Shown: positions 13,373 to 61,964 of the stretch, in pieces
How positions within the stretch are numbered: the first letter of the stretch is position 1
Layout: every line of letters starts with the position of its first letter
Assembly (NCBI RefSeq): GCF_036321535.1
Contig: NC_087436.1
Coordinates: 1 to 64,000 of the forward strand
Length of the DNA stretch: 64,000 nucleotides
From: Camelus dromedarius
Taxonomy: Eukaryota
Reading direction: 5' to 3'
The notes under the pieces: model-generated
Told to the model about the DNA's origin: nothing
The model's database searches: none
The model's input: only the letters and a program-made list of their open reading frames with translations
Translations under genes and position numbers: made by a program

Positions 13373-13605
13373 CTGCAACGAACTGCTCGTACTCAATGTC
13401 AGGGATGTTTCTGTTGAGACTTGGGAGGTCAAAGGAGTCGGACCAGGGATCGGGGCTCTGCCAGTGGTAGAGGTGGCCCCAAGGGAATAGCACCAGTACC
13501 GGCTCCTCCATCTTCAGCAGGGTCTTCAGGAGGAAGGCAATGTGGATGCAGACGTTCCTAAGGAGGTTGAAGCCCTCTGGAGGGTTGAAGTCACACAGAA
13601 GGTAC
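13373..13605 (-). pseudogene. POFUT2: POFUT2 (protein O-fucosyltransferase 2) exon 2, degenerate duplicated copy
   Basis: Reads [77 protein letters not shown] against recalled human [83 protein letters not shown]. Acceptor ccag and donor gtgagg are intact; 6-codon in-frame deletion. Confidence 0.95.
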
Positions 13606-13873
13606 CTGGCTGGGAGCAAAGGAGAGCGGGTCTTCAGGGCCAGGCCTCTGCACAGGAATCCCGGCTTAGATAGAACAGATACAACGGGAATCCCTGCACA
13701 GCCCATGGCCTAGACTCCAGACACATTCAGCAGCTTCTGGTTTGTAAAGTGGAGGCACTGCCCACCCATCTCCATGTGGCCAATTACTTCAAGTCCGGGA
13801 GCAGTTGCGGAAGACATCTTGGCATCCGTCTAACACCACTAAGCACCCGACTAGCATCTGAGCACCCGTTCTC

Positions 13874-14346
13874 CAGGGGCTCTCAAACTTCTTGTTCTAC
13901 AGAACCCTATACACTCTTAACAATTACTGAGAACTCCAAAAGGCTGCTATTTATGTGAGTTTAATCTATCACTATTTCCTGTGTTAGAAGTTAAATAAGA
14001 AGTTAGAGAAAGTGTATGAATTCACTTAAAAATATTAACAATCTACTGTATGTTACCATTAATACTCTTAAACAAAATATATTTCTATTTTTCAAAAGAA
14101 AAATCATTAGTGAGAAGAATAGCAGTGATTTTAATTTCTGCAAATCTCTTTTGGACTGGTGAGAGCTGAATTCTCCTATCTGCCTCTGCATTCCCTGTTT
14201 TGTGATATCGCAGGCCAGGTTTTCCCTGGAAAACCCCGCAGGAACTCGGGAGAGCAAGAGTGTGCAAAAGGCAGGTGACATCCCGGCGTTTCTATGAAAA
14301 TGGTCTTGCACCTCAGGGGCCTTGGATACACTTTGATAACTGTTGC
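13874..14346. mobile_element. hAT-Charlie DNA transposon fragment (Charlie4a/MER80-like) in POFUT2 intron 1
   Basis: Ends caggggctctcaaact... and ...cactttgataactgttg, with the internal tacactcttaacaattactgagaactccaaaagg motif. Confidence 0.6.
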
Positions 14347-14759
14347 CCTATCCAAGGCGAGACTCTTCTACACAAGAGCCAGGCAAGGGTCCTGGATTCT
14401 GTAATGAGTTACCGCCAAAACACCCCTCCCTTCTCTGTGTGTTTCTCACAAGCTCCATTACTGCAGATGAGGATGTAATCCTCAACTGGGGCCTCTAATC
14501 CCAGAAGACTGCTAACTTCAAGAGGGAGGGTCCCATCTACCATCCCTACACCCCGCATAGTTTATTTTGAGTCAAGCCCTAGATAACTGCTTATCGGCAC
14601 TGACCCTTGTGTCTTTTTCCTGAGGTTGACTGAAGGAACCAACATCTGGATGGAACTGAAATTTCCCTGCAGATAAACAAGGCTGATAAGCCACCCCATT
14701 CCAACATCTGATTCTGGGGCTCTTCAAAACCCGGGTAAGGCCCCGCTTCATCTAAGATG

Positions 14760-15640
14760 GGTCCTCCGCCTGCCCTTTCCGGGGGGTTCTGGGAGGCCGC
14801 GGCCACCAAGGGCGACCCAGACTCGCGGCCCCAGCCCCATTGCCTGAGGGGGAGGAAAGCTTGAGGCTGTGCCCAAGCCCTGCCCCGCCCCGCCCCAACA
14901 CGCTCCCCGGCACCACAGCCCTCCCCGGCCACCGCCCCAACCCCGATCCCACCCCGGTTCATGTCCGCCGGCCCCGCCGACGGCGCGGACGTACGTTTAC
15001 CGTCTGTGGGACGCCGCCCCAGACAGGATGTCGGCCGCCGACTGACCAGGCCAGAACTAGTCGCCCGGCCGAGCAAGCCGCCATCCCCAGCAGCAAGCAC
15101 CGCCATGGTCCCGGGCAGCTGCACACTTCCGGAGCCCGCTACCCGCCCCAGAAGCGCACGCCGGCCCGCGCAGAGCGTGGCGCCTGTAACCATGGCAACT
15201 CCGCGGGACCCTCCCCTAGCGCTTGCGTCGTGCGTCCTCCCGAGTCTAGTTGTGCGAGGGCAGAACTTGCAGAGCCAATGGGAGCCAGGGCGCAGCCAGG
15301 ACGGGGGTGGGGGGAGGCTTATGGGACAGCTGGGCGGGGCCGGGGAGGGCAGGGCCGCCCGGAAGTCCTGACCTGCAGGTGGCGCCGGCCGGAGGCTGGG
15401 GCGTTGCTGCCACCAGTGGGCGGGGCAGCGGGGCAGCGGGGCGGGGGCACCCTCACCTGTCCGTGTGTGGGGATCAGCCTGGGCTCCGTGGCCTCCGCTT
15501 GCACCGGACGTGGACCCAGGCTACCGGTGGGCAAGATAGAGGACTGAGCCCAGGCACGCACGGCTGGCCAGGTAGGGCACCTGAAGTGCAGATCCGCCAG
15601 GCCCGCTGCCGGCCTTGAATACGCGCTGCTAGGCAGTTTC
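14760..15640. promoter_or_regulatory. CpG island / bidirectional-type promoter of the POFUT2 duplicate
   Basis: Dense CpG. ETS ACTTCCGG at 15125-15132 and CCGGAAGT at 15359-15366 in opposite orientations, RFX X-box GTAACCATGGCAAC at 15186-15199, CCAAT at 15275-15279, several GC boxes. Confidence 0.8.
15001..15106 (-). pseudogene. POFUT2: POFUT2 exon 1 coding part, degenerate
   Basis: Minus strand gaccATGGCG...TAG TTC TGG CCT GGT CAG TCG GCG GCC GAC ATC CTG TCT GGG GCG GCG TCC CAC AGA CG|gtaaac gives [19 protein letters not shown] (human [20 protein letters not shown]). Stop at 15057-15059; deletions in the signal peptide shift the frame. Confidence 0.93.
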
Positions 15641-17869
15641 CAAGAAGACGGGATCTGTCATAAGAGGGGAGGTAGGGCTTGGGTACCAGATGTCGGGTTG
15701 GGTGCAGTCTCACAGGAGAGCCACGGTGAGAGGGCGCAGAGCGGCCCCTGTGTTGGCGGGGCTAAGAGTTTGGGGTATAGGGTCGGGGTGGTGTGTGCCT
15801 TTCTCCGTGGTCTCCTCACTCCAGAGCAAGGGGCTCTGCTTCCCCCCTCCCCTCACTGCACTCCCTGCCTTCCCCAGCACCACCTGGGGTGTGGTCATGT
15901 CGAGGCAGGGAAGGCCCAGGGAAGGGGCTCATTCAGGGGCAGGGGCCACTCTGCAGGGATGCTGGACCTGACAGCAATGCAGTGCTTCGGAACTCCCCTG
16001 GGCTGGGTTTCTAACCAGTGGGATGGAAGGGCCTTTCCTTCCTGGGGTGCATTTGGGGGAACTAGATACGTCATGAATGTCAGCCCTGAAAATGGAGGCT
16101 GTGCTACATCCATTCTTGGAAAGAAAAATCAGGCCCTTCCAGCCCAGGTGACTCAGAAAGTCAGTCAGCAATGTTCGGGGTCCCCAGTTTAGGCTTTCAA
16201 ATAGAGCTGAGCGGCTCAGGAGGCCAGATCCCTGTCCGTGGCTCCAGGAGTAGGCTTTCTGCTGGGGGACAGGATCCTCACAAACACCTGTGTCTTTGTG
16301 GGTCACTCCCCTCTGACAAGCTGGGAGGCAGGGTGCAGTTGTGGGAAATCGTGTTTCCATGAGGAGAGGGCCACCAAGTGGTGGGGGCACAGGAGACAGT
16401 GAGAAAGAGTCCCGCAGCCTTTCTGGAATCAAAAAACTGGCAAATGTGAAAAAGTGCATAATTTGTTTTATTGAACAGGCTGCTTATGTACGTTTGGAGG
16501 GCCAGGTTCAAGGACTCTGCATCCCTCCAGGACAATAGCCTCAAGAGAAGAACAGACAGAGCAGGAAGAGATGTGGGGTTTCTCCCAGGAATGAGGCAGA
16601 ACAGGGATTTCTGCAGATTTGCAAGGAGACCCCGACCGCTGAGCACCGGGTTACAACCCCACGTGACCCTTGTCGTGTTTGGCTTGGGCTCTGGGTCTGG
16701 CCTGATCATGTATTCTTCCAGCTGAGTTCCAGAAATTCAGAGGGTAGACTTAGAGAGGCTGCGTTTGGAACCCGGTGTGGAGACGGAGGGTCCTTTATCC
16801 TGAGTCCCCTCAGCCTAATCACTGTAGCTGAGTTCCAACACCACCCAGGCCCCCAGGGTGGCCGTGGAGGGAGAGCAAGCCTGGCAGGTGACCCAGGGGT
16901 CCCACTGCTGTGCCCCTCCCTTATCTTTGTTCCCTTTCACCCCGGAGGGTGTGATTGTCTCATGTCATGGTGACAAGCCATCTCTCTTCTCTGTCAGGTG
17001 GGATCCCCACCCCCGCTCAGCCTTCTTTCTGCATGGATGCTGAAGGACCAGGCTCACTTGAAGTTCTGAGTTTGAGCAGTAAGGTGGAAACAAAGAAACC
17101 AATGGAAACAAAGAAACAAGTCATTGTGGCAAAGCTCCCCACCACAGAGAAGCTGCCCTGAGTGGAAGGGAGGGTGTGGGCATGCCCATTTGTTTCGTGT
17201 CTCCCAGTGCTCTTCGCTTTCTTATTGCAGACCTGCATGGTTACAACAAAATGATCTGCAAAACTGAAAATATTTACTCTCTGGCTTTTACAGAAAAGGC
17301 TGACCAGCCTCTGGTTCCCGTACCGGTCAACTGATTGGAGTACCTTTCCAGTTTGGAAACATCTGGGCAGGCCCAGGTTTGCAAAATTCTTTAAGAGTAG
17401 TTATGGAGTTTTGCTTCTAAACATTTTTATGGCTCTATACTTCTGAGCTGAGGTTGTGCTGTGTAATTCTGAGCCGGGATTTTCTCAAACTGTTTCTTAT
17501 TTCTTATACCGGACACCCCTAAATTCCAAGGGGAATGGGATGTTAAGGAAGCCATGGAGTTTAGGAAAAAGATACAGATTTCATTTCCATTTAAGCATCG
17601 ATGTATCTCCATCCTAGGCAGTATCGGTTCTGTGGTATTGATAGGGGAACTAAATAGCAACCAAATTTATAGAAAATAGTGGGTCATTGGGTACACAAGT
17701 TCTTCTTTTCAACATTTTTGTAGTGTTTGTAGTTTAAGATGACCGTTCCTGAGAAACAGGCAGCCTCTTAGAATGAAATAGCATTTTCCCTGAACCATAC
17801 TCAATTTTTATTTCGTAGACAGCAGGAAGGGCAATCACACATCCAACACTTGGGGACCTCAAAGATAAA

Positions 17870-20345
17870 ACGTAACTTTCTGGGAGCACACTCCCCCCGT
17901 CTCCCTCTGCTCTTTTCACTGTCCCATTGTCCCTGAAGGCTCTTTTGTATCTTCTGCTCATGACTCCAGTAACTCTTCCTTCTCTTCCCTCAGCTGGTAA
18001 GTTTACTTTTCTACTTTGACCAAGCAAACTGAAGCCAACAGAAGAGAACTTTCACCAGCAACTCCCAGCACATCCGCTCGCCTTCTGATGTCTGTGACCT
18101 CACTCTCGCTGCCCCACCTCTTATTACAGGTGACATCGAAAGCCAGATCATCCAAAAGTCACCAGGGGGCCCATCCATACAATCTTCTCCGGGCTGTCAC
18201 TCCCACATCCATCCTCTCTGTCACTACCTCATCTATTTTGTTCTCCTGCTAGTTGGCTCCTATCAGTATATAAAAGTCCATCCTCTTAAAAGAAACAAAC
18301 AGCACTCCTTGACTCTAATTGGCCCCCACCAATTGCCACCCCATGTCTTTGCAGCAAATCTTTAATGAGTCGTTTAAACTCACTGTCTGCATATTCTCTT
18401 GAGCCATTCCCTTTGGCACCCACTCTGGCTTTCCCCCTGATCCCTCGCTCTATGGAAACTGCTCTGTCAAGGCCATCAGTGACCCCACGTTGCTAAATAT
18501 AGTGGTCAGTTTTTAGTCTTCATCATGCGTGGCCCTTTGGCAGCATTTGACCCAGCTCTTCCATTTCTCCTCCCCCGTGTTCCTGCTTCACTTGGCCTCC
18601 AGCCCATCGCTCTGCTTTCGATCCACTGGCTGGTCTTTTGCCAACGTCTCCTCTTTTTTCCAAATATTTACTGCGAATGTGCCTCGGAGTTGGGTCCTGG
18701 GTCTCTCCTCTATCTCACTGCTATACTTTTGGTGGAAGCAACCAGACTTGGAAATTGACATGCCATCAATTTCTCGATTTGTCCAAAACTCCCTGATTGG
18801 CCTTTTCCATTTGGAACTCTCTCCCTGATACTCATATTCTTTTTCTTTCATTCATCTTGCTTTCACATTCATACATATGTTCTACTGTGTAAATTACTTT
18901 TCCAAATTTTGAATCAGTCCATACATATCATGTGAAATGCTCAGATCTCTATTATTTCCACTAAGATGCTTATTCTACCTTAGAACCTTTCTGCATTTCT
19001 GTATTTATGTCAATAAAGTGAATAGTATTTCTACAAGCCTCATAGTTAAACAGTGTGTTTGTTTGGGGCTACTATGTAACATGAAATAATGATACATCAA
19101 CATAGTCCTTTTTCATTTAATTTTATGTAACACCAAGATGAGGTTTTTGCACTGAAGACTGTTTCATTGAAATTTTACCTACGTTATGGACAGTCAGTTT
19201 ATGTGAAAGCCCTCATTTCTCCCCTTTTCTGATATATTTTCCATTTGGCTATTATAACATATACCTTGGCATGAAATAAAATTCCAAATCCATTCACATA
19301 ATAAAATTAATACATTTAAATTATATTTTTTAATGTTAAAAAGAAAGAAAAAAAACCCCAGACTCCTCTACCTATTAGGCATTTCTGTGGCAATATCTAA
19401 TAGACTCCTTAATCATGACATTGAAGAACTGAGCTGATTCCAGCCCCTTTCCACCTGCTCAGCCCCATCTTGTCCCATCCCCTGTGGATGGAGAGGACAT
19501 CCATCCCATTTTCCAGGTCCAGATGTTGGAACCATGTTCTCTCTCTCTCTTTCTCTTACACACACACAGACAGCAAATCCAGCTTGTTAGAAAATTCTGG
19601 CTACTCTGAAATCATTAACCACATACTCTCTGTTCCCCACCCTCCTAGGAGCCACCTTCAACCCCTTGTTGGACACCAATTAGCCTACTTCTTCCATCTT
19701 TGCTTTTCTACAATCTCATCCACACAGAGTCAGAGGGAGCCTTTAAAAGCATACATTGAGGGGGTGGGTGTAGCTCAGTGATACAGTGCATGCTTAGCAT
19801 GCATGAGATCCTGGGTTCAAACTACAGCACCTTCACTAAAATAAATAAATTAACCTCCTCCCAAGAAAACTCAAAACAAAAGCATAAATTGGACATCACC
19901 CATCCCATCAAAACTCACTAAAAGGGTCACCATTCCATTAGGAGCCAAAGTCGTCCCAAAGTCTTCGAGGACCCGGCCTGCTCTGCCTCTCCGCCCACAC
20001 TCTCCCCACCACTCTGGGGGCCTCTGGCTCCGGCTCTTCCTTCTTCCTCCGGATCTATTCTGCTTCAAGTTCATTACTCCTTGAGATCTGCCAGGATTGC
20101 CTTATTCCCTCCTGCCTGCCTCCCACCCCACCACCATCACCTGAGTTTGCTCATATCACTCTTATTTTTCCCCAAGCTCTTGCTACCCCCATCATGTTGC
20201 CTGTTTTCTCTGCTAAAACTCTGAGCCCCCAGTGATGGGGAGTCGTGTCTATTTTGTTGACTAATAAAGCCCAAGAGCCTTGGGAATGGGTATAGTTACT
20301 AGATTCCCATAAGTAGTAGGAGCTTATACAGATTTGCTGAATGAA
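17870..20345 (+). mobile_element. LINE-2 (RT region to 3' end), interrupted by an AT-rich insert (~18830-19350) and a SINE
   Basis: ggaaactgctctgtcaagg...gttgctaaa...ggtcagttttt...gcagcatttgac is the L2 RT motif ETAL.KV..D...DLSAAFD; 3' end ttgctgaatgaa at ~20340. Confidence 0.75.
19759..19877 (+). mobile_element. tRNA-derived SINE (camelid Vic-1 type) with target-site duplication
   Basis: ggggtgggtgtagctcagtg...gcatgcttagcatgcatgagatcctgggttcaa (Pol III A/B boxes). TSD aaaagcatacattg 19745-19758 / aaaagcataaattg 19878-19891. Confidence 0.88.
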
Positions 20346-20598
20346 AGCAGAGGTCCTGGTCCAATTCGATGGAGCACTTCTGTGTCCTGCTCAAAGATTA
20401 ACTCTCCTTTCCTCCTGAGAGAGGGTGACCACTTCCTTGGTGATCAAAGGCAAGATCTATTTTCTTTATGCTGTTAACCTTAGGCGGGGAGACTGGGGGA
20501 TCTTCATTTATATTTTAAAATTTGATTCACTCTGCAGTTTGTCTCCTGTCTATGTATCCTTTTGAGAAACCATTTATGAGTGATCATTCTTCCATCAG

Positions 20599-23500
20599 AT
20601 TGAACAGGATCCAGGGGGAAGTACCAAGCCTGTCCCATCGGCCATCCTGTGTGTCATGTCCTGTGACCCAGTGGATGCTCAGCACGTAAGTGAACCAACA
20701 GGAGTGAGTGAAGTGATGGGAACATCTCATTATTGTGGTGGCTGCACTCTGTCCGATGCCTTGAGATTTGGGGAAGGGTTTACAACTGCGGAGGCGAGAT
20801 GTCAGGTCCTCTGTGCTCTTCCTGAGTGCCCTGGCCTTACCCATTCCCCCAGTCCCCTCTGGGCAGCCAAGCCCAGGAGCTGGGCCACCGGCGATTGTGC
20901 TGATCAATAATCCACCTCACCCAATGTCCGGGGGTAAGAGCGGCCAGCACAACTGTTTGTAGACTCTGAAGTCAGGTCCTTGGAGGAATTCCTCACTGAA
21001 CAATGTTTTGGACCTTTTATTTTTCTCTATAGCCTCCAGCTGAAGAAACAGATTGCCTTAGGTACATGAAAGGTGAGGACACCTACTATCCCCATGGAGC
21101 GCAGGTGGGGCTGGGAGTCTGCTGTTTGTACAGCCGGTGGGCTCGTGTTGCTTTGGGCATCCCTGTGCCTGAATTCCTGCAGTACACTCGGTGGTAAGAA
21201 CGGGGGTGCCTGGCAGGGAGGGAAGCGGGTCGGGGGACTGCACAGCTGGGGAGACGTTAACCTGGGGTGAGCGGGAGCCGGCTGATGCATGGAATCTCGG
21301 TGCAGGGAACTCTCCAAACTCAGAGAGGTTCCCACTCCCGCAGGGTCCCTTTGATCAGGGTGCTAGGCTGTCAGCACTGCAGGGTCCCTGTGAGGATCAT
21401 GGTGCCTTCAGGCAGTGGGAAGTGAGGGGTCCAGTGGCAATTAAATTAACTGTGCACCCAAAGCCAACCCCCGTCTCTTTCAGCCTGTTTCCTAATCTGC
21501 AAAACTGGAATGATGTTAACCATCCCGCAGGTTTGTTGATGGGCTGGGACACACTAGACTGCCAGGAGCTGGAATTCCTCTGTGCCCTGATTGTAATCCT
21601 TCCTTCACACTATTTACTCTCACAAGTTCAGTCTCTCTGTCTCTCTCATTCACTTGTAACTTTCTCTACTGCTCTGGTTTCATTTGATTCCCACCCTCCT
21701 CCCAATCCCCAGATGAGTGAAATTAATTTCTGTGTGTCAGTTCCAAATTCCCGGGAAAGATGCTCTGTCCCCTCTGGATTGGTTGTCCAACCCATCAGTT
21801 GCAGTCAGAGGAGTGAGTCCCTCTGTGACCAGAGGAGGGGCTCTGCCCAGCCCCCCAGCCACCACTGTGGGAGCACATAGCTCTCCGAGGAGGAGGTACT
21901 GGCTGTGACTTGGTGTCACTAAGTGTGAATTTATCTCTCCTCTTGCCCCACATTCATCCTCCTAAACAAAGATGAAAATTAAACACTCCCGAGATTTGTG
22001 TCATGGAACACTCAGGGTGGGGGCTAAGAGGGCTGGATTCCCTGCTGAGTGTAAGGGGCTACAGTGACTCGCCAACGAGAGCCTGTAAAGGAAACAGCAC
22101 CGGCCCCACTGGACATTAGGGTGCTAAGTCTGCGTGACATTGAGCCAGGCTTCTGACCACAGCTCAGGGGTCTGTTCTGACCGGTTAGTCTTTGAAACCA
22201 ACCAGCTTTGGATTCCTCAATCCCTCCCTGAGGTTTTACCTGAACCACGAGCTTCTGTATCTCTGAAGACAGATGATGAGGACCCTTCACGTAAGGCATT
22301 TGCACAGCCCTGTGCGGGAATTTGTGCTGCACGGTCTGCCCGGCGAGCTGACCAAAGTTCGTATTTTACTGATCTTAGAAATAGTCTGGTTTCCTGATGC
22401 ACTGTTTCACTGAACAAGCAACAGAAGCCACCTCTGGCTGATAAAAGCAAAAAAGGGACTTAATGAAAAGATACTGGGAGGGTGCATGGAGTGGCCCAGA
22501 CCAGAGCCGACCCGGGGGCCGTAGGAGATGTTGGGGAGCCCCAGGCACCAGGCTGCGCAGGGTGCTACCGGGCCCCCTGCTGCCCCAGCAGGGACCCCAC
22601 TCCTCCTGACACTCCACCTCACTGCAGGTTCATGTCCCGGCAGGGCCAGGTCACACTGAAGCCACCAGCACACACCTCAATGGGGGAGTTGGCCCCTTCT
22701 CAGCTGAGGGCGTGCCTGGTGTGGGGAGATGCCCAGTTAGAGGAAGGCGGTTCCCCTACTGTTCCGAGTTAATGCGCAAGTCAGTGTCCATCACTCAGGA
22801 GAGCCGGGCTGGTCGGACCTCATTGTGGTGACTAGGCCGTCTGAGTTCACGTATTACTTTTTAGGTTGGAAGGCCCAAGAGGGAGAAAAAGTGGAGGTTC
22901 TAGTACTTATTTTATATTTCCCATGTACCAGGTGCGGTAAGCAAGCCACTTCAGACAAGGCCCATAACAACCACATTAATAGGCCACGGAGAAAGTCATG
23001 CAGTCAGGCCTCTGCAGCCCCGAAACCCGTGTCCTCATCAGTTCCGTAGTTACCAGTGGAAGTTGTAGGGATTTATGGGACTGTGTGCTCCTGTGGGGGC
23101 TGGGATGTGTGTGTTTAAATCCACATCTTCAGAAACTCGGCCAGAACCACAGCCACTGATTGTCTGCATGGAGGCAGAGGAGGGGAGGCTTCCAGCCTCT
23201 GGTCCAGCTCGTGTGGAGCTCAGAAGTTGCTCCTTCTGTCCTGAAAACAACACCAGAGCTGAGGGAGCTGCAAACCCACTGCTCTTCTTAGATCCACAAG
23301 AAAACTGAGGGGGAAAGCTGCTCCCAACACAGAGAGGCAGCCGGGCAGGCTTGGAGAGTCACAGCTCCCAGGGCAGAACCCGCTTTTGTAAGAACCCCGG
23401 GGGCAGGCAGATTTAACAGGTCCCTGAGGCCAGCTGGAGGCTCAGCGTGGGGAAGTCCGAGTGTGACAACTCCAGGGGGCCAGTCAGAGGGGCCCCCTGC

Positions 23501-51279: not shown

Positions 51280-51315
<36 letters not shown>

Positions 51316-52492
51316 CTTTATCAAAGTTCCTTTGATTTTAACTGCAAACTGTTGTTGAGCAGCTCTGGTTTCCTTTGGATATGAATATGTACATTTCTTT
51401 GCATGTAACTTGGATTTTAGACTAGAACACCAACCTCTTGCTTTCCATGAGCCACAAAACTCATAGCCAAATGACATACGTATGAAATATTTTATTCTTT
51501 TCTTCTGAGACAGAATCCTTGAATCTGGGACTTGGGCTGTGATTTTGCTTTTTGCTCTTCCCACCCCTCTTGTCGTCTCACTCCTTTTTCCCACGTGGCC
51601 TCCAAGATGTCATGGTCTCCGAGGAGCAGGTGGACAAACACCAGTTGGTCGCCAAGCAGTCCTGCTGTAGAGGGAGCCCAGCCAAGAGCTAAAGGACATC
51701 ATCAGAGAGGGCTTCCTTGAAGAAATGGGCTCTACATTCAGTTATGAGGACAGAGTAAGAGTCAGCCAAGAGAAGGAATCAAGAGGGTGACTCAGGTGGC
51801 AGGAGCAGCCCGGGTAGAGGCCTGGAGGATTGTGGGGTGGGGACTCGGGGAGAGTGCACTGTGTGGTCCAGGGTGGAGGGTGCCCCTGCTTGGGAGGACC
51901 CTGGAGTGGGCCTAGGGTTGGAGGTTTTGGAGGAGCTTGCTTTTTTACTAGAACTGACACAGAAGAGGCAGTGAAGTGTGTCAGCAGAAAGTGACCCTCA
52001 GGAGAGGTACTCCTGGTTTTGTTTCTGATGTTCTACAGAAAGAAGGGGTCGGGGTGGGCGAGAGCAACTCTGCCCGTCCCTTTGAGACCCACCCCTTCAT
52101 TCATTTATTCATAACACATGCAATTCTGAGTGTCCAGGGGAGAGAGGGTGGACTCACAGTAGTAAGAAAAATGTATTGCTTCTTGAGAGCTTAGCAGTGT
52201 CAGAAGTTGTCTTAGCGTAGAATGTTCTAGGAACACAGCAGGGGCACCTAACCCAAAGGGCAGAGGTTCGAGGGAAGGAAGGCTTCCTTGACAAACCGTC
52301 AAAATGAGCCTGGAGGCAAGTGGGAAGTAGCAGCAGGTCAGGGGGCACCTGAGGTCATTGTGGACCTGGGTACTGTGGTGAAGGTGGGCGAGCAGGGTCG
52401 GGGGTGGGGCTAGAACTCTACCAGGGAGCCTCTGAAGGGTTTGAAGTGGGGGTGATGTAATCAAATTTGTGCTTTGGGAAGGCTGTCCTGGC

Positions 52493-52539
52493 TGTGTGTG
52501 TGTGTGTGTGTTGTGTGTGTGTGTGTGTGTGTGTGTGTG
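52493..52539. repeat. (TG)n microsatellite; others at 61479-61510 (TG)n, 51282-51310 (GA)n, 53603-53641 poly-T
   Basis: Directly visible. Confidence 0.95.
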
Positions 52540-53600
52540 AAGTGGGGAAGAGGGGGAGAGTGCCAGCAACTGGGAGGGTCATTAGAAGACCATTGACAGG
52601 CTGGGGGGCCACCAGTGGGAGAGGGGCGTCGGGGCTGCTTGGGGACGGCAGGGGCAGTGTGGATGCCGGATTTCCTCATGGGGAGGGCTTATTAACTGTG
52701 ACCCCCTAGCGGCACCTTGTGGCTGGAAGAAAACGGATGCAGCCAGGTGGACTTTTCTCTTCTTCCCTGCCTTGTGTGATGATCTTAGCTCAGCCAACAT
52801 TTGGAACAGAAGAGCTAAGTTTCAGGGTAGTCCAGGACTTTGATGAGCTCGTTCGAGTGAGATCTGATAGGATTTAGGCTTGTGTTGAGATCTGCATGTT
52901 CACTTAGCTAGAAACGTCCCGTCTTTTGGATTTCCATAGGGGTATTTATTCTTGATAAAGATTGCTTTCTTGGTGAGAGGAAATTTAATACAGCTGCTGT
53001 CTTTCTCAAAAAAAAATCTTATCTTTTAAGAAATTTAATATTCAAAAGAATAGCAAAATTTAAAAATGATAAAGTAAGGCTTTGGTGTAGTTTCTTTGGA
53101 TTCTGAGTTAATGTAGAGTTAGAGCCTTTGCATTACTTAAATAGCACATCCTTGTCAGTATTTAAAGAGCTGTTAGTGAGCGCCCCAGGCCCCACTTCTC
53201 AAAGCATCATTAAATCTTGCTCTGAAATACTGAAGTCATAAAGTTCTTGTTGGCAGAAGCCAAACAGTTGGTTTATAATTTGCAGCATAGCACCCTTTAT
53301 AAAATAATAATAGGTTCAAAATTAAGAAAGTGGAAGATAACTGATTTTTTTAAAGCTGAAATATAAACTCTCTTGTGTTAATGTTGCAACTGGAAATTTC
53401 AAAAAAAAAATCCTACTGTAATATCATCTACGTGGAATACATATATGTCTATCACGTTTGCAACGTAACTGCGCAGTGGTTTTTGAAGACAGGACCATTC
53501 CAGCTGAGATACTGGCAGTGATGCTTGCTGGTTTTCAATGGAAAACCCTAAATTTGCCTACTTAGCTTTATTCTTTTCTTTTCTGTTCTCTCTCTCTCTA

Positions 53601-53642
<42 letters not shown>

Positions 53643-53746
53643 TAGTGAGAGGGCTCAGTAGTGCTCTGCCAGCATGATTTTGGGGCAATTTGGGGGCAGA
53701 TATCGTGCACAAGCAGTGAGATATTTCCATGCATTTTACTTTCCGG

Positions 53747-53868
53747 ACATCACCATGGAACATGTGGGGGTTTGTGCCTGCAGGCCGGGATGCTGCAGGA
53801 CTCCCTGGTCCATCACCGTTATGTCTTGGAGCTGCTCCAGTCAGTGAATGACTTTCTGTGGCTTGGAG
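53747..53868 (+). pseudogene. TRAPPC9: TRAPPC9 next coding exon, degenerate
   Basis: [32 protein letters not shown]|gtaag against human [33 protein letters not shown]. Acceptor AG>GG; 5' deletion removes the KKRCQGRMR region. Confidence 0.93.
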
Positions 53869-54224
53869 GTAAGGTGATCTGATGCAGATGATCAGATGTG
53901 TAAAAAGTACTGTTACTTGAAATAGAAAACCTATCAAAAATGGCTCTAAAATACAGGATGAAGGAGGAGAAATGGCTGAGCTGCTTGCATGGGGAATATT
54001 CTCAGGTGACTCCCTCATTGTGTCTCCTGTCAATCCCCCCACCCAGCCCTGCACGGCAGTCATGCTGAAGCAAGCATGCACTTTCTCAGAAACACGCTGA
54101 ATTTCCTTGTGCCTCTGTTTGTTGGCTTTTTTTTTTTTTCAAAGCACATCTTGCCCTTTGTTTAATGCCATCCCTGCCTAGTCACCTCTTACACTCATTC
54201 TTCTGGACCTCGTCCGTACAAAGC

Positions 54225-54750
54225 TGCTGAATGGATGAACAGAATGTAGTATCTCCATGTAGTGGAACATTATTCAGACGTAAGAGTGAATAAAAAAGAA
54301 AAAATAAATAAAGGGGAATATGAAAAAGCCACCTGCTCTGGGAAGTCCACCCTGACTGCTCAACCCGCCCTTTTCCCTTTGAAACCCAATCACTTATGCT
54401 CCTCTCTACTCTTTTTGATAGTACTTACCACCTTCTAATAAACTTTAACACTTTCAAAAAAAAAAAAAAGAGAGAGATGCTGATACCACTTCAACATGGA
54501 CGAGCCTTCATAACAGCACGTTAAGTGAAAGGAAGCAGACACAAACGGCCACATATTGTTGACTTCAGTGATCTGAAATGCTCAGAATAGGCACATGCAG
54601 AGGCAGGGAGCAGGTGATGGTTGCAAGGGGATGGGTGGAGGGGGCTTGGGGAGTGAATGCTAGTGACAGGGGTGTTCTTCTGGGGTGATGAAGTGTTCTG
54701 GAAATAGATGGTGGTGAGGGCTGCACAACCGTGAGTGTGCAGAAAACTGC
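54225..54750 (+). mobile_element. L1MB-like 3' end fragments
   Basis: gctgaatggatgaacagaatgtagtat...caacatggacgagcctt...cacatattgt...ttctggggtgatgaagtgttctggaaatagatggtggtga. Confidence 0.75.
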
Positions 54751-55820
54751 TGAGCGCTGTCTCTGGGAGTGCCTGTGGTTGGGGGCGGATTTATTTTGTT
54801 CTCATCCGTGAAGAGTCATCTTGTGCTGAGGCCATTCTACTCCTGTGAGTGGTGAGGCTCAGAGACTTTGCAGAGTCATGTGTTATTTTCCCCCTTGCTG
54901 AGTGTAAGCAAAAAATTTTTAAGCCTGAGGAAGTGCTCTATCTGCAGAAATGTCTTTGAGTTTTGCATGGTGTAAAAATCTTGAGAGATTTTTAATCGTT
55001 GAGGAGAGCCTGTGGGGGGAAACAGCCCGTGAAGCCTGGGTGACACTGGGAAGAGCCGCGCTTCCATCCCTGACAGGGGTGGGGATTTCACCCCCGTTCA
55101 GGCAGTGAAGGGCCCAGACCCGTGAGCGGAGTTGACAATCGTGAATATTTACGTGTATCCGCTGCTTCATCTTGGATATTAATTTCAAGCTGAGTCAGTT
55201 TGTGGCGGCAGCCTCATCCTACATCAGGAATCTATACTATCTGCTCTTTGAGGTGAAGACCTGACAGACTTGATTATTTAACAGTCTCCCTTGAATTGAT
55301 ATCTCAGATTCCTTTGTCAATAGTAAAACAGCAGAAATATAGACGTCCTTTTATGCCGATGTGACCTGGAGCAGGTTTAGTCTCTGTGCCTCAGTGGCCT
55401 TATCTGCGGGTGGGGAAGATGATAACAGTGCTTCCCTCAGAGGGGCTGGTGAGGGGAGAGGGAGGAGCACAAAGGGAGGACTTACACGAGATACTCATGA
55501 ATGACAAAATTTAGTGCTCTCAGCCTGGTGAGGCCTCAGGGCCGAGATGGCCGAACAGAGCAGTCCTAGCCGGAGCTCGATCCGTGTTGGCAGCTGTTAT
55601 GATCAGTATCACCACTGTGGGTTATCAGGCAGTTTTAAGACTTGGTAATAGGAATTCATGAGTAATGTTAAAAGATTAGACAACTCAGATCCGGTTTACA
55701 TAGTTCTCAAGATTTCCTATGAGAAATGGATATTTTTCCCCCATCTTTAATCTGAGTTGAGTCTCTAAACAACTTCTGTATTCCTCCAAATTTTATTTAA
55801 TTCTCCATTTCTTGAAAAAA

Positions 55821-55908
55821 AAGTCTTTAAATGGAGTTACTGGTGTCTGAACTGAGGGTCTCATGCATGCTGAGCACATACTCTCTCAAGTGAGGTATAA
55901 TCTCCCCC
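55821..55908 (-). mobile_element. tRNA-derived SINE (Vic-1 type), diverged
   Basis: gaactgagggtctcatgcatgctgagcacatactct...tataatctcccc. Confidence 0.7.
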
Positions 55909-58900
55909 GTGATTTTTTTAAACTTTTCTTTCTTAGTATTCAGAGATTAGAGGCCTCTAATTCTTTTTCTGGAGACATGTCCATGAACCTGTAAATCTAT
56001 AATTAGTGGACAAAATTTGGTTTATTAAAAAATTCTATAAAACATTCTGCAATCCTTTCAAAAGTAAATGCTCATTGACATAAAATGTTTCTCCTTTATG
56101 GTGATTTCTAATTTTTTGTCTGCCTTAACTTATTAAAAGTAATCCTCATCATCATAATGACCAAGCTTGCTCTGAGTGGACACCTCCCTAAGGCTAAAAT
56201 GCTTTCCTCATATTTTACCTCATAGCAGGTGTTTAAGGGTAGGCATCAGTGTCTCCTTTTTTGCAGCTGAGGGATTGAGAAATGGGGCAGCTTGTCCAAA
56301 ATCTCACACAGCTGGCGCTGGCAGACTCAGGGCTGGAACCCAGGCTGCACAGGATGCTTTCTCAATGTCTCCTCTGATCAGCCCCGTGTTGAGTGGTTTC
56401 CCGAACTCCTGTGAGTCCATAAGTGAACGATTTTAGCGGTCTCAGTTTGATGAAGCCTTCAAAGGAGAGACACCAGTGAGAATGTGAGACAGAGTGGCAT
56501 AAATTGAAATTGTACATTTTCACAAATGTTGCATTCTCAGGCAATGGCTTAAAAAGTTTATATTTTTTTATTTTAGTGCTCTGTAAACACTAAAAACAAA
56601 ATATTAAAAATGATTATAGTGCAAAATAGGAGTGGGCTTTGAAAGTCCAACCATTGCTAATGATGTTGCTTGTTTTTCTCTAGTGGTGCTTATTGACAGA
56701 AAAATTTACAAAGACTGAATTGGTTCTATGTAGTCTTAGTATGGAGGAAAGTTTTGTCAGTGAATATTGTAAGTAAAATCTTTACTCTTTTCTTTCCTGT
56801 TGATGAATATGTAAGTTGTTTTCATGGCTTAAGTACATTTCCTCATTTGTGAAATTTGAGTGATGCCGTTTACCTTGTTTGACTGTGAGATGTAGACGCC
56901 TTGTATACGAAGCACCCAAGAGCTGCTTAGTAAAAATATGCTGTCACAAGGACAGATAGTTTAGAAGGATCAACTCTGAATACTAAAGAGGGTGGCTTGT
57001 TTCTGATGCATATTCAATATGCATATATATGAATATATGAATATGGCTTAAAGTAACAAGGATTCAGGGTTTTGTGTGTGTGTGCAGTATGAAGGTTTAA
57101 TGAAATCTGTATCATTCTAGTGAGACAGGGACTAGTTAAATCACCTTAAGCAGATGGCCTTGAAGATTATTTACACAGAATGTGTGTTGTTACAACTCAG
57201 AATTCATGTTGCCGTGTAACCATCCACTCAGACATTTAAATTCGTAGAAATCTGACCAGAACTATTAAGTTTAGAAAAATCCACATTGATTATTTTAAGG
57301 GAATAAGCTTCTTTCTTTTGTGATTAAAGAAATTTTGATTTATTTTTCTGCATGCTTAATAGGTTTTAAAATATCAAAACATTGATTTGACATGTCACTT
57401 TTTTTAATAGAATAAAGCTCATGCTGTTTTAATGTGCAAATAAAAGTTTTTGTATTTCAATACACTTGTATGATTTCCCTGGCTCTTTGAGAAGTATTTT
57501 GCAAGATACTTAGATTACCTACTGTTGGAAAAATACAGACGTGACTTTTATGAATAGAGGTCTAGTACAGATCTGTTGGTTTTTGCTACAGTGCATGACA
57601 TGAGGCCTAGGAGAGAGAGCTTTGCTGCTGATTGCCGGAAGGACAGATCCCAGATCTCAGTCTCCCCTCCTGTAAAATGAAGTGGCTGGACTGGATTCTT
57701 TCCTCTTCTAAGATGTGTTTCCATGAGCCTGTGTCTTTTGTTTATATTCAAGAGTATTAGCAATGTCAGATTAAATACTGAATACCCCTCCCTTCCCCGA
57801 AGCAAACTGCAGTATGTGCTACATAAGCTTTTAGTTATCTGATTCTTGTTTCTGATTCAACAAGCAATTTTTGTGTTGCATCTTTCCCGGCAACCTGGAA
57901 GGTCTTTTTAGCCATAGGAGGCGCTGTTGCACCTTCATACATTCTTAATTTTCCTGTTTGTAAAAGAAGGCTTAACAAATATTTTTTTGCTTTGATTCCT
58001 TTGCTTAGTGCTTCAGAATAGCACAATGTCCATTATGTCTGTCTACCTGGAAAAATTATTCTGCCTATATCTTTGTTTTATTCTGTCATCTCGCTGTGAA
58101 CATTTCAGACTTGCTGTGCAACAATGGCAAAATCGGTCTTTTATTCCAGTGTTAGCAACCAGTGAGCCGGGATTTTATAAAGCAGCTAGAAGCGGCCTCT
58201 TGAGCACCTTAAAGCTGAAAAGTGTACTGAGTTCCCTGAGTATTGACCCAGCCGCTGTGTGTCATTTGGTGGGAGGTGATTTTGTACATAGAAGAAGGGG
58301 TGTAGTGATTTGACTTGGGTTTGCGTGCACACGCTGTCACTGAGCCACGTGAGCCTGAGTCAGTTTGTTCTGAGTTTCTCCCTCGTCTGTGAGATGGGGA
58401 TGCTCGTATATGCTTTGCAGAATTGTGAGAATTAGAAATTATGTAAATTGTTTAGCACAGTGGGAATGTCAAAGGGCTCATAAAGTTTAGCTCCTGTTTT
58501 GTATGAAGCCATCATTTTACAGTCTTTGGCAATTACTAAGAAACAGGAAAATAAGAAAAGCTGGTTTTATGATGAAAGATATTTGAGGAGGTTCCATAGT
58601 TCCTATACCCATAATTTAGCATCAGCAAAGTCAGGACCGTTACACAGTCGCCCTGAACCAACGTTAAGCCACAGAATTTTTTGGTACTTCATATATATTG
58701 GGGCTTAAGTGGACCCAATACTTATACACATGTTTTCTCCAGCAGCCAACTGAGAGATGACACAGAAGAACAGACAGGCGATAAATGTCTCCTTTATTAC
58801 TGATGAAGCCACGTTCTCCATGAAATTCAGGGCTGTGGGAAAATGCATGTCATGATACTGTGTCCCAGAATTAGAGACTCACGCAGTCCCAGGTAACTCT

Positions 58901-60960
58901 GGGCCACAGCGAGCCTTCCCTTAAGATGATCTGCCCCATCCTGCACAGGGCTGCCCTGCCATGGAGCTGAGCATCCCGGGTGCTTCCCAAGGGTGGCCAA
59001 CACTGGAGGGAAAGGAAAGGTTTCATATGCCCTGCTTGTCTCTCCGGACTCACACCTCAATCTGTTATTGTGAAGAGTGCTAGCCGTTGGCCAGGGGTCA
59101 GGGGTGTGAAGGGGGAAGCACTCTCCATGGACCAGAGGAGTGTGGAGGAGGCATCCCTTCTCTCAGTTTAAACAGGTGGTGAGATGCAAGAGAAGGGTGC
59201 TCTCCAAGAGTTTATAAGAGGGGAAATAAGGATTTCCTTTGGGACTCAGACTAGCCATGAAACACAGAAGATGATTAGTAGGGAGACTTGTAAATCACTT
59301 TCTTATTAAATTCACATTTGTTGAGCACCAAAAATGTGCTACATTCTTTTCTGAGCGTTTTACAGAAATGAATCCTTCAATCTTCACAACAAGTGAGTAA
59401 GGGAGATTTGATTGTTATCCCAGGTTTACAATGTGGAAATTGAGGCACGGAGAGAGTAAGTTGGCCAAGGTCACAGAGCTAGTAAGTGGCAGAGCTGGTA
59501 TTTAAACCCTGGCTGTCTGGTTTCCAGGCTCCCAGGGATGGGCTTTGGGTGTTTAGAGGTATCTGCATCCCTGGATCTCTGTACCTCTGTGCATCACTTA
59601 GCCCAGAAAGGACAGGGAAAGGAGAGTTACACAGGTGCTCACAGTCGTGTCTCAGCCACTGTCCACGGACAGTGCACCGTGATTGGCGTTAAATGTCTTC
59701 TGGGCAGCAGATCTGTTCGTATAACAGAAATTTAGTCCATTGAGTTAATCTAGAAACCCTTCCTGCTCTGCTTCTGTCCATGGTTTCCATGTGACTGCCT
59801 GCCCGTGATTGGGCCGTTGAGGAGAATCTGTACTCATAGTTGAACTCTGATATTTCAGTCTGGTTCGTAGTTTCACATCTCCTGTTACATTAATAAATTC
59901 AATTTCTGGTTTCTTTGCATCAGTCTCTCATGAGTTTGGTTAATGTGACATCAGTCCATGGGAGCCTAGTGTTGCTGACGGTATATTTTCTGAGCACGTT
60001 GTGGCACTTCTACCCGTGTGGACCTGGGTGGAAGATTTCCGCCTTCCGCACTTATTTTCCCGAACAGCAGGGTCCTCTCCCACCCCCGGATGTGAGGCTG
60101 GGAGCTCTCAGAGTAGGCCAGTCAGAGGCCAAGTCCACAAATCAGAAAATAATGAAGTCCTTGGAAGTGGGTTTAATAGAAAAAAAGGGCTTCCAGGTAT
60201 TCCGATGGGCTGTTCGAGTCCATTTGGTGAAAAGCTATCCACTGTTACTGGTTGAGCTGCTTCTTTGCTGTTGAAAAGTCTGGATTACATGGAGGGATTT
60301 TAAAAAGCAGAAAGGTGTGATTTCATGTGGTACATCCACACCGGTGAGTAGTGATGGATGACCGCCTGTGTGAGGCATAGACAGAGTCTTACAAACTTCA
60401 TAAAACAGCTTTAAAAGCTCTGCCATCTGAGTGCACTTCATATGGGGTCCAATTCATGACTGGGCATGCTGAGAGGGCAAATAATTGATAATGGCAGAAA
60501 GGACACAGAGGCATCAAAAAGGTCTCAGTCATGTTCCCTGTTTAAAGGATGTGGCACAATGTAATATATTTGAGCTGGTTCTTCACTGAACAGTTTTGAG
60601 TGTTTTCTGGGACTCCCCAGTGCACCAAGGTTCCGTGCAGCTGGGTGTCCCCTCAGTGCAGCTCTGTCAGCGCTCATCCTGGGCTGACGTGGTGTCACGG
60701 GGAGCAGGACAGTCAGCGTCCCCGGCTCCTCCGAGCTCCGTTTCTTCATCCGCAATGCTGGGTTTCTCTTCGGTGTCTACTTAGTAGGGTTGCTGAGAAT
60801 CACACGTGATGGTTGTCAGGGGCGATTTGTGGTTGTCTCTGTGATTGTCATATAGTGAATATTTGATAGAAACTCTTGTTTTTTATTAAAATTATGGCTC
60901 CTAGATTGCAGTGGTTTTTAGTCTGCATTTACTCTTTTTATAAATTTATTCTTATTTTTA

Positions 60961-61065
60961 AATAAGCACTTATTTTTATTTATTTTTATGAAGGAACTGG
61001 GGACTGAAGCCAGCACATTGTGCATGCTAAGCAGGTGTTCTACAACTGAGTAATACAGACCCTCC
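60961..61065 (-). mobile_element. tRNA-derived SINE (Vic-1 type), diverged
   Basis: ggaactggggactgaagccagcacattgtgcatgctaagcaggtgttctacaactgag. Confidence 0.75.
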
Positions 61066-61476
61066 TTGTCTGAACTTAAAAATAAATATTTCAATACACA
61101 AAATAGCTCTTAAACCCCATCATGGGCCTATTTTCTGTATAGACAATTGAATACATATGCTAATTCAATAAGAATAAATGTTGTTGGGACATAATTTCTG
61201 AATCTGTTTATGTGTTTAAAAACGATCATAGGTAGTGATAAACACGAGTCTTGGATCCACTACTTAGGGTCTGTTTTGCCATCATGGGAAATTATATTTT
61301 ACAGAGAAGGCTAATTGGGTCTCGTTGATATTTGGATGATTTAGCAGATGATGAAGGCTTTCAAAAGCTGACAGTTTTGTATTTTAAACTAACTACAAAG
61401 TTATCTTCTATAAATTGGAAGTCCTCAGCTTGTGAATTGCCCAGTAATTCAGTGTGTACATGTCTGTGTCTCTGTG

Positions 61477-61511
<35 letters not shown>

Positions 61512-61937
61512 TTTCAGGAAGGTAGAAATAAGTTCCATATAGCCTTCTGATACCTTTCTCTTCCAGTTCAAGGTGTAGGCATATATTTATACAAATAAAT
61601 TGATACTCTTTTGTCATTTGGCATATTGGTGGGTATAAAAGTTTCTCATACTTGTTTCAGAAGGGTTGGGGAGAATGAGCTTAGAAAATAGGAGGAGATA
61701 GAGGCAGGAAGGTTCTTTACACTTTGTGCAGGATGAGAAAGAGTAGCTTTTCTTTTTTCTACTAAAGCAAACTGGCACTGAATTGTAACATACTATTACT
61801 CAGAATTGCTTTTCTGATCAGATACGAGTGCCTCAGATTTTTCAAGGCGACATGAATGATGAAATGTGTTTTAGCAATTATCTTTAAATGTAGTTTTATT
61901 TTTTAAGTAAAAGGCTATAGCCTGTTCTTTCTTCCAG

Positions 61938-61964
61938 CGTTACAAGAAGTTCCCATTGATCCAG
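61938..61964 (+). pseudogene. TRAPPC9: TRAPPC9 27-nt micro-exon homolog
   Basis: ttctttcttccag|CGTTACAAGAAGTTCCCATTGATCCAG|gtacat gives (A)LQEVPIDP(G), against human AQEVLIDPG. Both splice sites intact; correct order and strand relative to the upstream exons. Confidence 0.8.

What the first reader, a model, noticed from the sequence alone, without database searches (positions are those of the whole stretch)
13373..61964. Mosaic of intron-containing gene fragments from unlinked loci: a segmental-duplication acceptor region
Seen: POFUT2 exons 1-2 with intron and promoter, the MRAP2 last exon with upstream intron-like sequence, TRAPPC9 exons separated by ~8-kb introns, plus unidentified exon relics, all within ~50 kb and all disabled. 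Established: POFUT2 (21q22.3), MRAP2 (6q14) and TRAPPC9 (8q24.3) are unlinked in human, and retrocopies would lack introns. Inference: a duplicon mosaic like primate pericentromeric/subtelomeric hubs, here in a probable camelid genome (acrocentric short arm, pericentromere or sex chromosome), likely multi-copy.
Basis: partly seen in the sequence, partly recalled or inferred. Interest (0 to 1): 0.7.

Follow-up and report, generated by a model that had tools for sequence, protein, structure and literature searches.

The report
Camel multi-copy mosaic of gene fragments
This stretch of a camel chromosome is one of well over a hundred copies of an old patchwork made from unspliced pieces of three unlinked genes, and the newest copies sit in giant mirror-image repeats clustered at one place on most chromosomes.

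Summary
The window (first 64 kb of contig C1 of a 2.3-Gb camelid assembly, most likely dromedary) carries three unspliced gene pieces. They are POFUT2 promoter, exon 1, intron 1 and exon 2 (11,644-17,182, minus strand), the MRAP2 last intron, last exon and 3' flank (27,103-37,098), and the TRAPPC9 5' end with an 8.4-kb intron (38,303 to at least 59,985). Each piece aligns with its introns to one intact parent on a different chromosome-scale contig (C2, C6, C20), at K = 0.16-0.20. All three are broken relative to their parents.

This is not a unique acceptor site. The three-part module recurs at least 130-200 times on at least 59 contigs, in the same order and orientation. Copies form age classes, with K to the window from 0.001 to 0.19. 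Alpaca and camel gene models span the same junctions.

The window starts 1.4 kb past the centre of a near-perfect palindrome with an 83-nt spacer. Other contigs read through this centre, and markers stay mirrored for 0.3-0.36 Mb.

Tests for protein-level constraint were negative or inconclusive. I read it as a camelid counterpart of primate pericentromeric duplicon mosaics, a new member of a known kind. A neighbouring window of this scan had already noted the TRAPPC9 units.

The parts
1..2841 (.). Centre of a large palindrome: arms 1-1379 and 1463-2841, spacer 1380-1462 (83 nt). The contig starts 1.4 kb past the centre.
   Evidence: The arms are 100% complementary. Contigs C138 and C57 read straight through the same centre with both arms present, 99.1-99.8% identical to the window. 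Their two arms are 99.4-99.5% identical to each other over 9.86 kb.
7268..10266 (-). Exon-like blocks of unknown origin (7268-7493, 8418-8537, 9080-9217, 10120-10266). Alpaca and wild-camel gene models use them as 3' exons behind POFUT2 exons 1-2.
   Evidence: tblastn of P0112 and of P0217 and P0218 gives 71-89% amino-acid identity. No Pfam family was found.
11644..17182 (-). POFUT2-derived duplicon: part of intron 2, exon 2 (13,374-13,607), intron 1, exon 1 remnant (about 15,000-15,065), CpG-rich promoter and about 2 kb upstream.
   Evidence: It is collinear by blastn with the parent at C2:121,610,404-121,618,696, K 0.195. The parent's exons 1-4 are 100% identical to P0194. Exons 3 onward are found only at C2.
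17183..27102 (.). Spacer of unknown origin that belongs to the module. It contains a GC-rich, diverged repeat of about 475 bp (about 24.7-27.1 kb). Its units end in CAG|GTGAGC-type donor sites and supply the 5' exons (24,625-24,684, 25,089-25,142, 25,423-25,614) of 'MRAP2-like' gene models.
   Evidence: The repeat families are, and TRF did not score the array. The stretch 20,600-22,400 has 160 candidates in the genome, of which 40 were scored, all inside the family.
27103..37098 (+). MRAP2-derived duplicon: about 1.8 kb of the last intron, the last exon (28,895-29,326) and the 3' flank, with a 2.3-kb insertion at 31,855-34,206.
   Evidence: It is collinear by blastn with the parent at C6:63,132,981-63,147,282, minus strand, K 0.159. 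A 1-nt deletion splits the native reading frame.
37780..39437 (.). Inverted pair of about 520 bp (37,780-38,298 and 38,957-39,437, 77.5% identity) that straddles the start of the TRAPPC9-derived segment at 38,303, about 1.2 kb beyond the end of the MRAP2-derived one (37,098).
   Evidence: The right copy is an insertion relative to the TRAPPC9 parent.
38303..59985 (+). TRAPPC9-derived duplicon: upstream region, CpG island (about 39.8-40.7 kb), first coding exon (44,821-45,384), 8.4-kb intron, next exon (53,745-53,870). The following exon is lost in a 3.1-kb deletion at 54,753/54,761. The segment continues to the window end or beyond.
   Evidence: It is collinear by blastn with the parent at C20:2,912,962-2,939,000, K 0.184. 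The parent's intron is 8.30 kb against 8.36 kb here.

Best explanation
The window is one young copy of a camelid-specific, high-copy segmental-duplication family. Its core is a composite module. The module was built from genomic (unspliced) pieces of three unlinked genes: the POFUT2 5' end, the MRAP2 3' end and the TRAPPC9 5' end. Spacers of unknown origin lie between the pieces. The pieces were copied from their parents at about the same time (K 0.16-0.20) and joined into one block. The block then spread as a unit to one cluster on most chromosomes, in successive waves. The last wave copied a very large palindrome, and the window lies at the centre of one such palindrome. The gene pieces are non-functional relics with respect to their parent proteins. 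Their promoters and splice sites still yield chimeric gene models. Shown here: the identity of the pieces, the breakpoints, the intact parents, the copy numbers, the constant order, the palindrome, and the age classes. Inferred: the pericentromeric or short-arm location, and the mechanism. That mechanism would be duplicative transposition into one site, then exchange between non-homologous chromosomes, then local inverted and tandem duplication.
For: Collinear alignments to single parents on C2, C6 and C20 include introns and flanks. POFUT2 exons 3 onward give 5 matches out of 12 candidates, all at C2:121.60 Mb. Copy numbers: POFUT2 exon 2 has 199 candidates, 150 scored, all matching at 75-100% amino-acid identity. 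The MRAP2 exon has 139 candidates and 137 matches. TRAPPC9 exon 2 has 453 candidates, 150 scored. A later TRAPPC9 exon has 812 candidates, 90 scored. Constant architecture: 122 of 132 MRAP2 places have a POFUT2 exon in the expected orientation 15.4-25 kb away. 96 of 132 have a TRAPPC9 exon 16 or 19 kb downstream, which is a lower bound. Age classes: K to the window over 4.95 kb is 0.001, 0.01, 0.05, 0.06-0.09 and 0.16-0.19 in 20 sampled copies. Alpaca models P0024, P0217 and P0218 span the same junctions. Palindrome: plus 11 head-to-head POFUT2 pairs, 9 of them 23.6-24.4 kb apart. Mirrored markers in C138 and C57 reach 307 and 356 kb from the centre (coordinates). Location: combined with contig lengths.
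Against: The near-identical class (15-21 places per marker) lies largely on small unplaced contigs. Several contigs begin or end within a few kb of a palindrome centre. Some of these copies may therefore be redundant or mis-joined assemblies, and no read depth could be obtained. No parent was found for two stretches of the module (2.8-11.6 kb and 17.2-27.1 kb). Gene models in four camelid species fit transcription. This is at odds with 'pure relics'. No centromere marker was examined.
Confidence: 0.78

Rival explanations
1. The module is an amplified family of working chimeric genes: a truncated TRAPPC9 N-terminal protein of 236-254 residues, POFUT2-exon chimeras and MRAP2-tail chimeras. Its copy number would be kept up by selection or by a drive-like process, as in sex-linked or mouse autosomal ampliconic gene families.
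For: Predicted proteins from dromedary, Bactrian, wild camel and alpaca match these exons. By my count from the table, 118 of 150 scored POFUT2 exon 2 copies keep the 118-codon frame open. Some TRAPPC9-like exons keep frames of 253-331 codons. In-frame pooled pN/pS is 0.59 for the TRAPPC9-like exon against 0.90 and 1.11 in the two off-frames. Changes by codon position are 107/73/146. Four runs on record as RNA hold most words of the MRAP2-derived exon and its flank.
Against: The MRAP2-derived frame has pN/pS 1.22 and flat codon-position counts of 49/44/48. The TRAPPC9 exon has GC3 of 0.78. After allowing for AT, GC and CpG site classes, the position effect is not significant (observed 107/73/146, expected 108.5/87.3/130.2, p 0.12). 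Only 6 of 20 sampled TRAPPC9-like exons lack internal stops or frameshifts, and that sample was chosen partly for long frames. The window's own copy has two stops. The P0021-type last exon has no AG acceptor at the modelled boundary in the window. No reads were laid, so splicing is unproven.
Confidence: 0.15
2. The pattern is mainly an assembly artefact: foldback chimeras at contig ends, uncollapsed haplotigs or false duplications.
For: The window begins with a perfect 1,379-nt inverted repeat at a contig end. Seven contigs start within 25 kb upstream of a minus-strand POFUT2 copy, which is close to where a palindrome centre would lie. C151 appears to end near one. Many 100% copies are on small contigs.
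Against: C138, C57 and C11 read through palindrome centres inside the contig, and their arms differ slightly from each other. Most copies differ from the window by 1-19%. The junctions recur in 122 of 132 places and in alpaca and other camel annotations. An artefact cannot produce diverged copies.
Confidence: 0.04
3. It is an amplicon of a sex chromosome or of a B-like chromosome.
For: Giant palindromes with near-identical arms and amplified chimeric genes are typical of mammalian sex-chromosome amplicons (recalled knowledge).
Against: Copies lie on 24 of the contigs C1-C37 and on 35 smaller ones. The window itself is on a 123-Mb contig.
Confidence: 0.03

Closest known systems
Primate pericentromeric and subtelomeric duplicon mosaics, and the 'core duplicon' idea (recalled from the literature of Eichler and colleagues; Bailey & Eichler 2006 is cited in PMC13751797)
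   Same: Unspliced fragments of unlinked genes are juxtaposed in one block. The block is then re-duplicated between non-homologous chromosomes, clusters at one region per chromosome, and gives chimeric gene models. One piece (TRAPPC9 5') is the most abundant, like a core.
   Different: This is in camelids. Parent-to-copy identity is only about 80-85%, below the usual 90% threshold for segmental duplications, so standard detection would not link copies to parents. The youngest layer is organised as near-perfect palindromes with arms of 0.3 Mb or more. No positive selection or expression has been shown.
Pseudogene-rich repetitive blocks of the alpaca genome (NEK10-, ATF5-, FMN2-, ACTB-like copies; PMC13751797, passages read)
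   Same: They occur in camelid genomes. They are multi-copy gene fragments in repeat-rich domains near centromeres, interpreted as segmental duplication followed by decay.
   Different: Those blocks are reported as specific to South American camelids, absent or reduced in camels, and each confined to one chromosome. The present family is in camels and alpaca, on most chromosomes, and is built from other genes. TRAPPC9 does not occur in that paper's text (occurrence count 0 in the listing). POFUT2 and MRAP2 were not searched for in it.
Palindromes of mammalian sex chromosomes, such as human Y P1-P8 (recalled)
   Same: Large inverted repeats with arms 99.4-100% identical and a short spacer, carrying amplified gene copies.
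   Different: These are autosomal and present in many copies of the same palindrome. The spacer is only 83 nt. Arm-to-arm gene conversion was not tested.
Mouse Sp100-rs long-range repeat cluster (recalled)
   Same: A chimeric gene made by joining pieces of unlinked genes, then amplified in repeat units of about 100 kb.
   Different: The mouse cluster sits at a single locus and is transcribed. Here the copies are spread over most chromosomes and transcription is unproven.

Membership tests
Segmental (DNA-level) duplication as opposed to processed retrocopy | Introns and flanking non-coding DNA of the parent are retained and collinear | tested here: met
   POFUT2 intron 1 is 1.39 kb against 1.37 kb in the parent. 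The TRAPPC9 intron is 8.36 kb against 8.30 kb. Collinear alignments cover 5.3, 7.2 and 18.3 kb.
Segmental duplication (usual operational definition, recalled: at least 1 kb and at least 90% identity) | At least 90% identity between copies | tested here: met
   Among paralogues, 18 of 20 sampled copies have K of 0.087 or less to the window, and some are 99-100% identical. Between copy and parent the criterion is not met, with 14-17% mismatches.
Duplicon mosaic of unlinked parents | The parental loci are intact and lie on different chromosomes | tested here: met
   POFUT2 is at C2:121.6 Mb (exons 100% identical to P0194). MRAP2 is at C6:63.14 Mb. TRAPPC9 is at C20:2.92 Mb, with an open exon 2.
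Duplicon mosaic propagated as a unit | The same order, orientation and spacing of the pieces in most copies | tested here: met
   122 of 132 for POFUT2-MRAP2 and 96 of 132 for MRAP2-TRAPPC9, the second being a lower bound.
Pericentromeric or short-arm heterochromatin location | Adjacency to the centromere or its satellites | not tested
   Only indirect evidence exists. There is one cluster per large contig, terminal on 16 of the 21 contigs whose length I know and interior on 5 (C9, C13, C18, C25, C37). No satellite or FISH data were examined.
Large palindrome (inverted duplication) | Two arms in inverted orientation, near-identical, around a short spacer, spanned by contiguous sequence | tested here: met
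   Arm length beyond 10 kb rests on mirrored marker coordinates only, reaching 307 kb in C138 and 356 kb in C57.
Functional ampliconic gene family | Purifying selection on the ORF and spliced transcripts | tested here: inconclusive
   pN/pS is 0.59, 0.66 and 1.22 for the three exons. The codon-position excess for TRAPPC9 vanishes after composition control (p 0.12).

The most novel reading that the evidence does not exclude
Camelid chromosome ends or short arms may be built largely from one composite amplicon that is still expanding through germline palindrome formation. Arms of several hundred kb meet at an 83-nt spacer, and the whole palindrome is copied more than ten times. A subset of copies may express new chimeric proteins, such as a truncated TRAPPC9 N-terminal domain, under weak selection. 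That would be an autosomal counterpart of sex-chromosome ampliconic gene families.
Probability: 0.15. Interest if true: 0.7.

Novelty: new member of a known kind. Interest (0 to 1): 0.5.

Why it matters
It shows what much of the poorly resolved, repeat-rich chromosome ends of camels is made of. It also gives a mapped example, outside primates and rodents, of a gene-fragment mosaic that spread genome-wide. There are practical consequences too. More than a hundred 'TRAPPC9-like', 'MRAP2-like' and 'POFUT2-like' gene models in camelid annotations are probably relics. Association hits assigned to these genes may fall in the duplications: a dromedary GWAS lists TRAPPC9 and POFUT2 side by side at one locus (PMC10357240, passages read). 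The near-perfect giant palindromes are also likely points of assembly breaks and of instability.

Tried and rejected
RNA support: the look-up of sequencing runs listed 20 holders, of which 4 are on record as RNA and come from one study. Read laying failed twice: one search was one base too long, and one search was stopped by a filter and counted. Nothing was laid, so expression and splicing remain untested.

Whole-chunk DNA search of the genome with 12 kb scored only 1 of 17,897 candidates, so it could not be used for copy counting.

Pfam and PDB did not recognise the TRAPPC9-like ORF. Pfam found nothing above cut-off in 150 ORFs of the unassigned intervals. It did not confirm my recalled impression that 11.4-12.7 kb is L1-derived.

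The family PF08626 search found only one parental exon.

TRF did not score the diverged 475-bp repeat.

Look-ups of earlier findings by relatives and by words returned nothing.

Four literature searches found no description of this family.

The simple pN/pS and codon-position signals for TRAPPC9 were first read as constraint. I downgraded them after the composition control.

The origin of 2.8-11.6 kb and 17.2-27.1 kb was not found.
Full report
What is there. The window is the first 64 kb of contig C1 (123.3 Mb) of a 2.31-Gb assembly in 171 contigs. Three gene-derived pieces are real.

The first piece is from POFUT2. The ORF at 13,353-13,709 (-) hits Pfam O-FucT and human POFUT2 structure 4ap5_A (E 1.2e-32) with a 6-residue in-frame gap. 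With dromedary POFUT2 (P0194), tblastn places exon 2 at 13,607-13,374 and part of exon 1 at 15,065-15,000. Both lie under a GC-rich block.

The second piece is the last MRAP2 exon, at 28,902-29,287, split over two frames. Its ORF matches true MRAP2 orthologues at about 75% and camelid 'MRAP2-like' models at 84-97%.

The third piece is from TRAPPC9. The first coding exon (residues 1-194) is at 44,821-45,384 and the next exon at 53,745-53,870. Camel 'TRAPPC9(-like)' models match at 94-96%. The best hits in all three searches are camelid. The parental POFUT2 exons are 100% identical to a Camelus dromedarius protein, so the genome is a camelid, most likely dromedary.

Parents and breakpoints. POFUT2 exons 3 onward occur only at C2:121.60 Mb: 5 matches out of 12 candidates, all there. 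The 10 kb upstream of them aligns collinearly with window 11,644-17,182. The copied piece therefore runs from inside intron 2 to about 2 kb upstream of exon 1 and stops 1.7 kb short of exon 3.

The least similar MRAP2 exon match, at C6:63.145 Mb (73%), is the parent. Its surroundings align with window 27,103-31,855 and 34,206-37,098.

TRAPPC9's later exons point to C20:2.97 Mb, and a family search points to C20:2.929 Mb. C20:2,912,962-2,939,000 aligns collinearly with window 38,303-59,985. This includes the 8.3-kb intron, but a 3.1-kb stretch with the following exon is missing from the window.

Mismatch-based K to the parents is 0.195, 0.159 and 0.184 for POFUT2, MRAP2 and TRAPPC9. The three pieces are therefore of similar age. 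At commonly assumed mammalian neutral rates (recalled, rough) this is tens of millions of years.

Relative to the parents all three pieces are broken. POFUT2 exon 1 has a stop and a frame change. MRAP2 has a 1-nt deletion shared by 18 of 20 sampled copies. TRAPPC9 exon 2 has four deletions and two stops.

Copy number and architecture. In the same genome POFUT2 exon 2 has 199 candidates, of which 150 were scored, all matching at 75-100% identity, with 15 at 100%. The MRAP2 exon has 139 candidates and 137 matches. I merged five fragment rows, which leaves 132 places. TRAPPC9 exon 2 has 453 candidates, 150 scored. A later TRAPPC9 exon has 812 candidates, 90 scored. A spacer stretch (20,600-22,400) has 160 candidates; the 40 scored all lie in the family, 18 at about 100% identity.

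Of the 132 MRAP2 places, 122 have a POFUT2 exon in the expected inverted orientation 15.4-25 kb away, with modes at 15.6 and 18.9 kb. The ten without a partner include the parent and four places at contig starts. Also, 96 of 132 have a TRAPPC9 exon 16 or 19 kb downstream. This is a lower bound, because two thirds of the TRAPPC9 candidates were not scored. The mosaic is thus a unit that was copied as a whole.

Twenty sampled copies of the 24.5-29.4 kb stretch differ from the window by K 0.001, about 0.01, 0.05, 0.06-0.09 and 0.16-0.19. The two oldest, on C37 and C18, already carry the junction between the GC-rich spacer and MRAP2. Alpaca gene models span the spacer/MRAP2 junction (P0024). Others span the junction between the POFUT2 exons and the downstream 7-10 kb exons (P0217, P0218). 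The mosaic therefore predates the split of camels and South American camelids, which PMC13751797 puts at 11-25 million years (introduction, passage read).

Palindrome. The window opens with a perfect inverted repeat, 1-1379 against 1463-2841, with an 83-nt spacer. This is not a contig-end artefact. C138 and C57 read through the same centre with both arms, each 99.1-99.8% identical to the window. Their own arms are 99.4-99.5% alike over 9.86 kb. C11 has a palindrome whose arms meet at window positions of about 10,334 and 10,550 and are 100% alike.

Among the 150 scored POFUT2 copies there are 11 head-to-head pairs, nine of them 23.6-24.4 kb apart. That spacing is twice the distance from the window's centre to its POFUT2 exon. 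Markers stay mirrored out to 307 kb in C138 and 356 kb in C57 (coordinates).

Of 91 neighbour distances, 29 fall in the 200-320 kb range, with peaks near 258-260 kb and 308 kb. Seven contigs, C1 included, start within 25 kb upstream of a minus-strand copy. C151 seems to end near a centre. The assembler evidently broke at these centres.

Location. Copies lie on 24 of contigs C1-C37 and on 35 smaller contigs. I know the length of 21 large contigs. On 16 of them the copies form one cluster in the terminal part of one end: for example C1 at 0-4.1 of 123 Mb, C11 at 66.7-72.4 of 73.0 Mb, and C6 at 77.9-91.7 of 92.1 Mb. On the other five (C9, C13, C18, C25, C37) they form one interior cluster. One cluster per chromosome fits a centromere-linked position. 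It also fits the heterochromatic short arms described for camelids (PMC13751797, passages read). I did not test this. If each module stands for a unit of about 260 kb, the family would amount to some tens of Mb, but that figure is only an extrapolation.

Dead or alive. Camelid annotations contain chimeric models built on these exons (P0002, P0021, P0112, P0024, P0217, P0218).

Pairwise Nei-Gojobori counts give pooled pN/pS of 1.22 for the MRAP2-derived frame, 0.66 for the POFUT2-derived ORF and 0.59 for the TRAPPC9-like exon. The off-frame controls for TRAPPC9 are 0.90 and 1.11. Parsimony counts by codon position are 107/73/146 for TRAPPC9, 36/35/50 for POFUT2 and 49/44/48 for MRAP2.

However, the TRAPPC9 exon has GC3 of 0.78. 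After stratifying sites into AT, GC and CpG classes, the observed counts do not differ significantly from expectation (p 0.12). A third-position excess does remain at non-CpG sites.

Only 6 of 20 sampled TRAPPC9-like exons are free of internal stops and frameshifts, and I had chosen that sample partly for long open frames. Four runs on record as RNA, from one study, hold about 80% of the words of 28,600-30,600. I conclude that constraint is not shown and that most copies, the window's included, are relics.

Comparison and novelty. The pattern matches primate pericentromeric duplicon mosaics in kind: unspliced pieces of unlinked genes joined, then spread between chromosomes. It adds a layer of giant near-perfect palindromes.

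A recent alpaca paper describes other pseudogene-rich blocks (NEK10, ATF5, FMN2 and others) as lineage-specific and absent from camels (PMC13751797, passages read). The listing counts no TRAPPC9 in its text; I did not search it for POFUT2 or MRAP2. Four full-text searches found no description of this family. They found only a dromedary GWAS that lists TRAPPC9 and POFUT2 together at one locus (PMC10357240).

My data agree: C1 has TRAPPC9 exon copies at 45,196 and 99,596. They also add the POFUT2 and MRAP2 partners, the parents and the palindrome.

Noticed in passing
window 24,700-27,100: A GC-rich, strongly diverged tandem repeat of about 475 bp (61-81% identity between units). Each unit ends in a CAG|GTGAGC-like splice-donor motif. 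Three units serve as 5' exons in camel and alpaca 'MRAP2-like' gene models. Its origin is unknown.
   Followed up: partly
window 37,780-38,298 and 38,957-39,437: An inverted pair of about 520 bp (77.5% identity) that straddles the start of the TRAPPC9-derived piece, about 1.2 kb after the MRAP2-derived piece ends. The right copy is an insertion relative to the TRAPPC9 parent. It may be a mobile element or a trace of the joining event.
   Followed up: partly
L011 = G000:C11:69,577,300-69,587,200: A second type of palindrome in the same family. Its arms meet at window positions of about 10,334 and 10,550, so the inner 10 kb is missing. The arms are 100% identical. This could be an independent inverted duplication or a deletion of the centre.
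   Followed up: partly
G000:C1:36,651,695 (minus strand): A solitary MRAP2-like exon copy (87% amino-acid identity) far from the terminal cluster of C1. No POFUT2 or TRAPPC9 partner appears among the scored hits.
   Followed up: no
window 507-908, 1,934-2,335 and 12,272-12,659: An interspersed repeat of about 400 bp (71% identity between copies). It flanks the palindrome centre on both arms and also lies in POFUT2 intron 2, in the parent as well. From memory it resembles an L1 3' end, but Pfam did not confirm this.
   Followed up: partly
G000 contigs C151 (end), C62, C72, C127, C104, C150, C158 (starts): Several contigs begin or end within a few kb of a palindrome centre. The assembly seems to break systematically there, and the true start of the C1 chromosome probably continues into the other arm.
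   Followed up: partly
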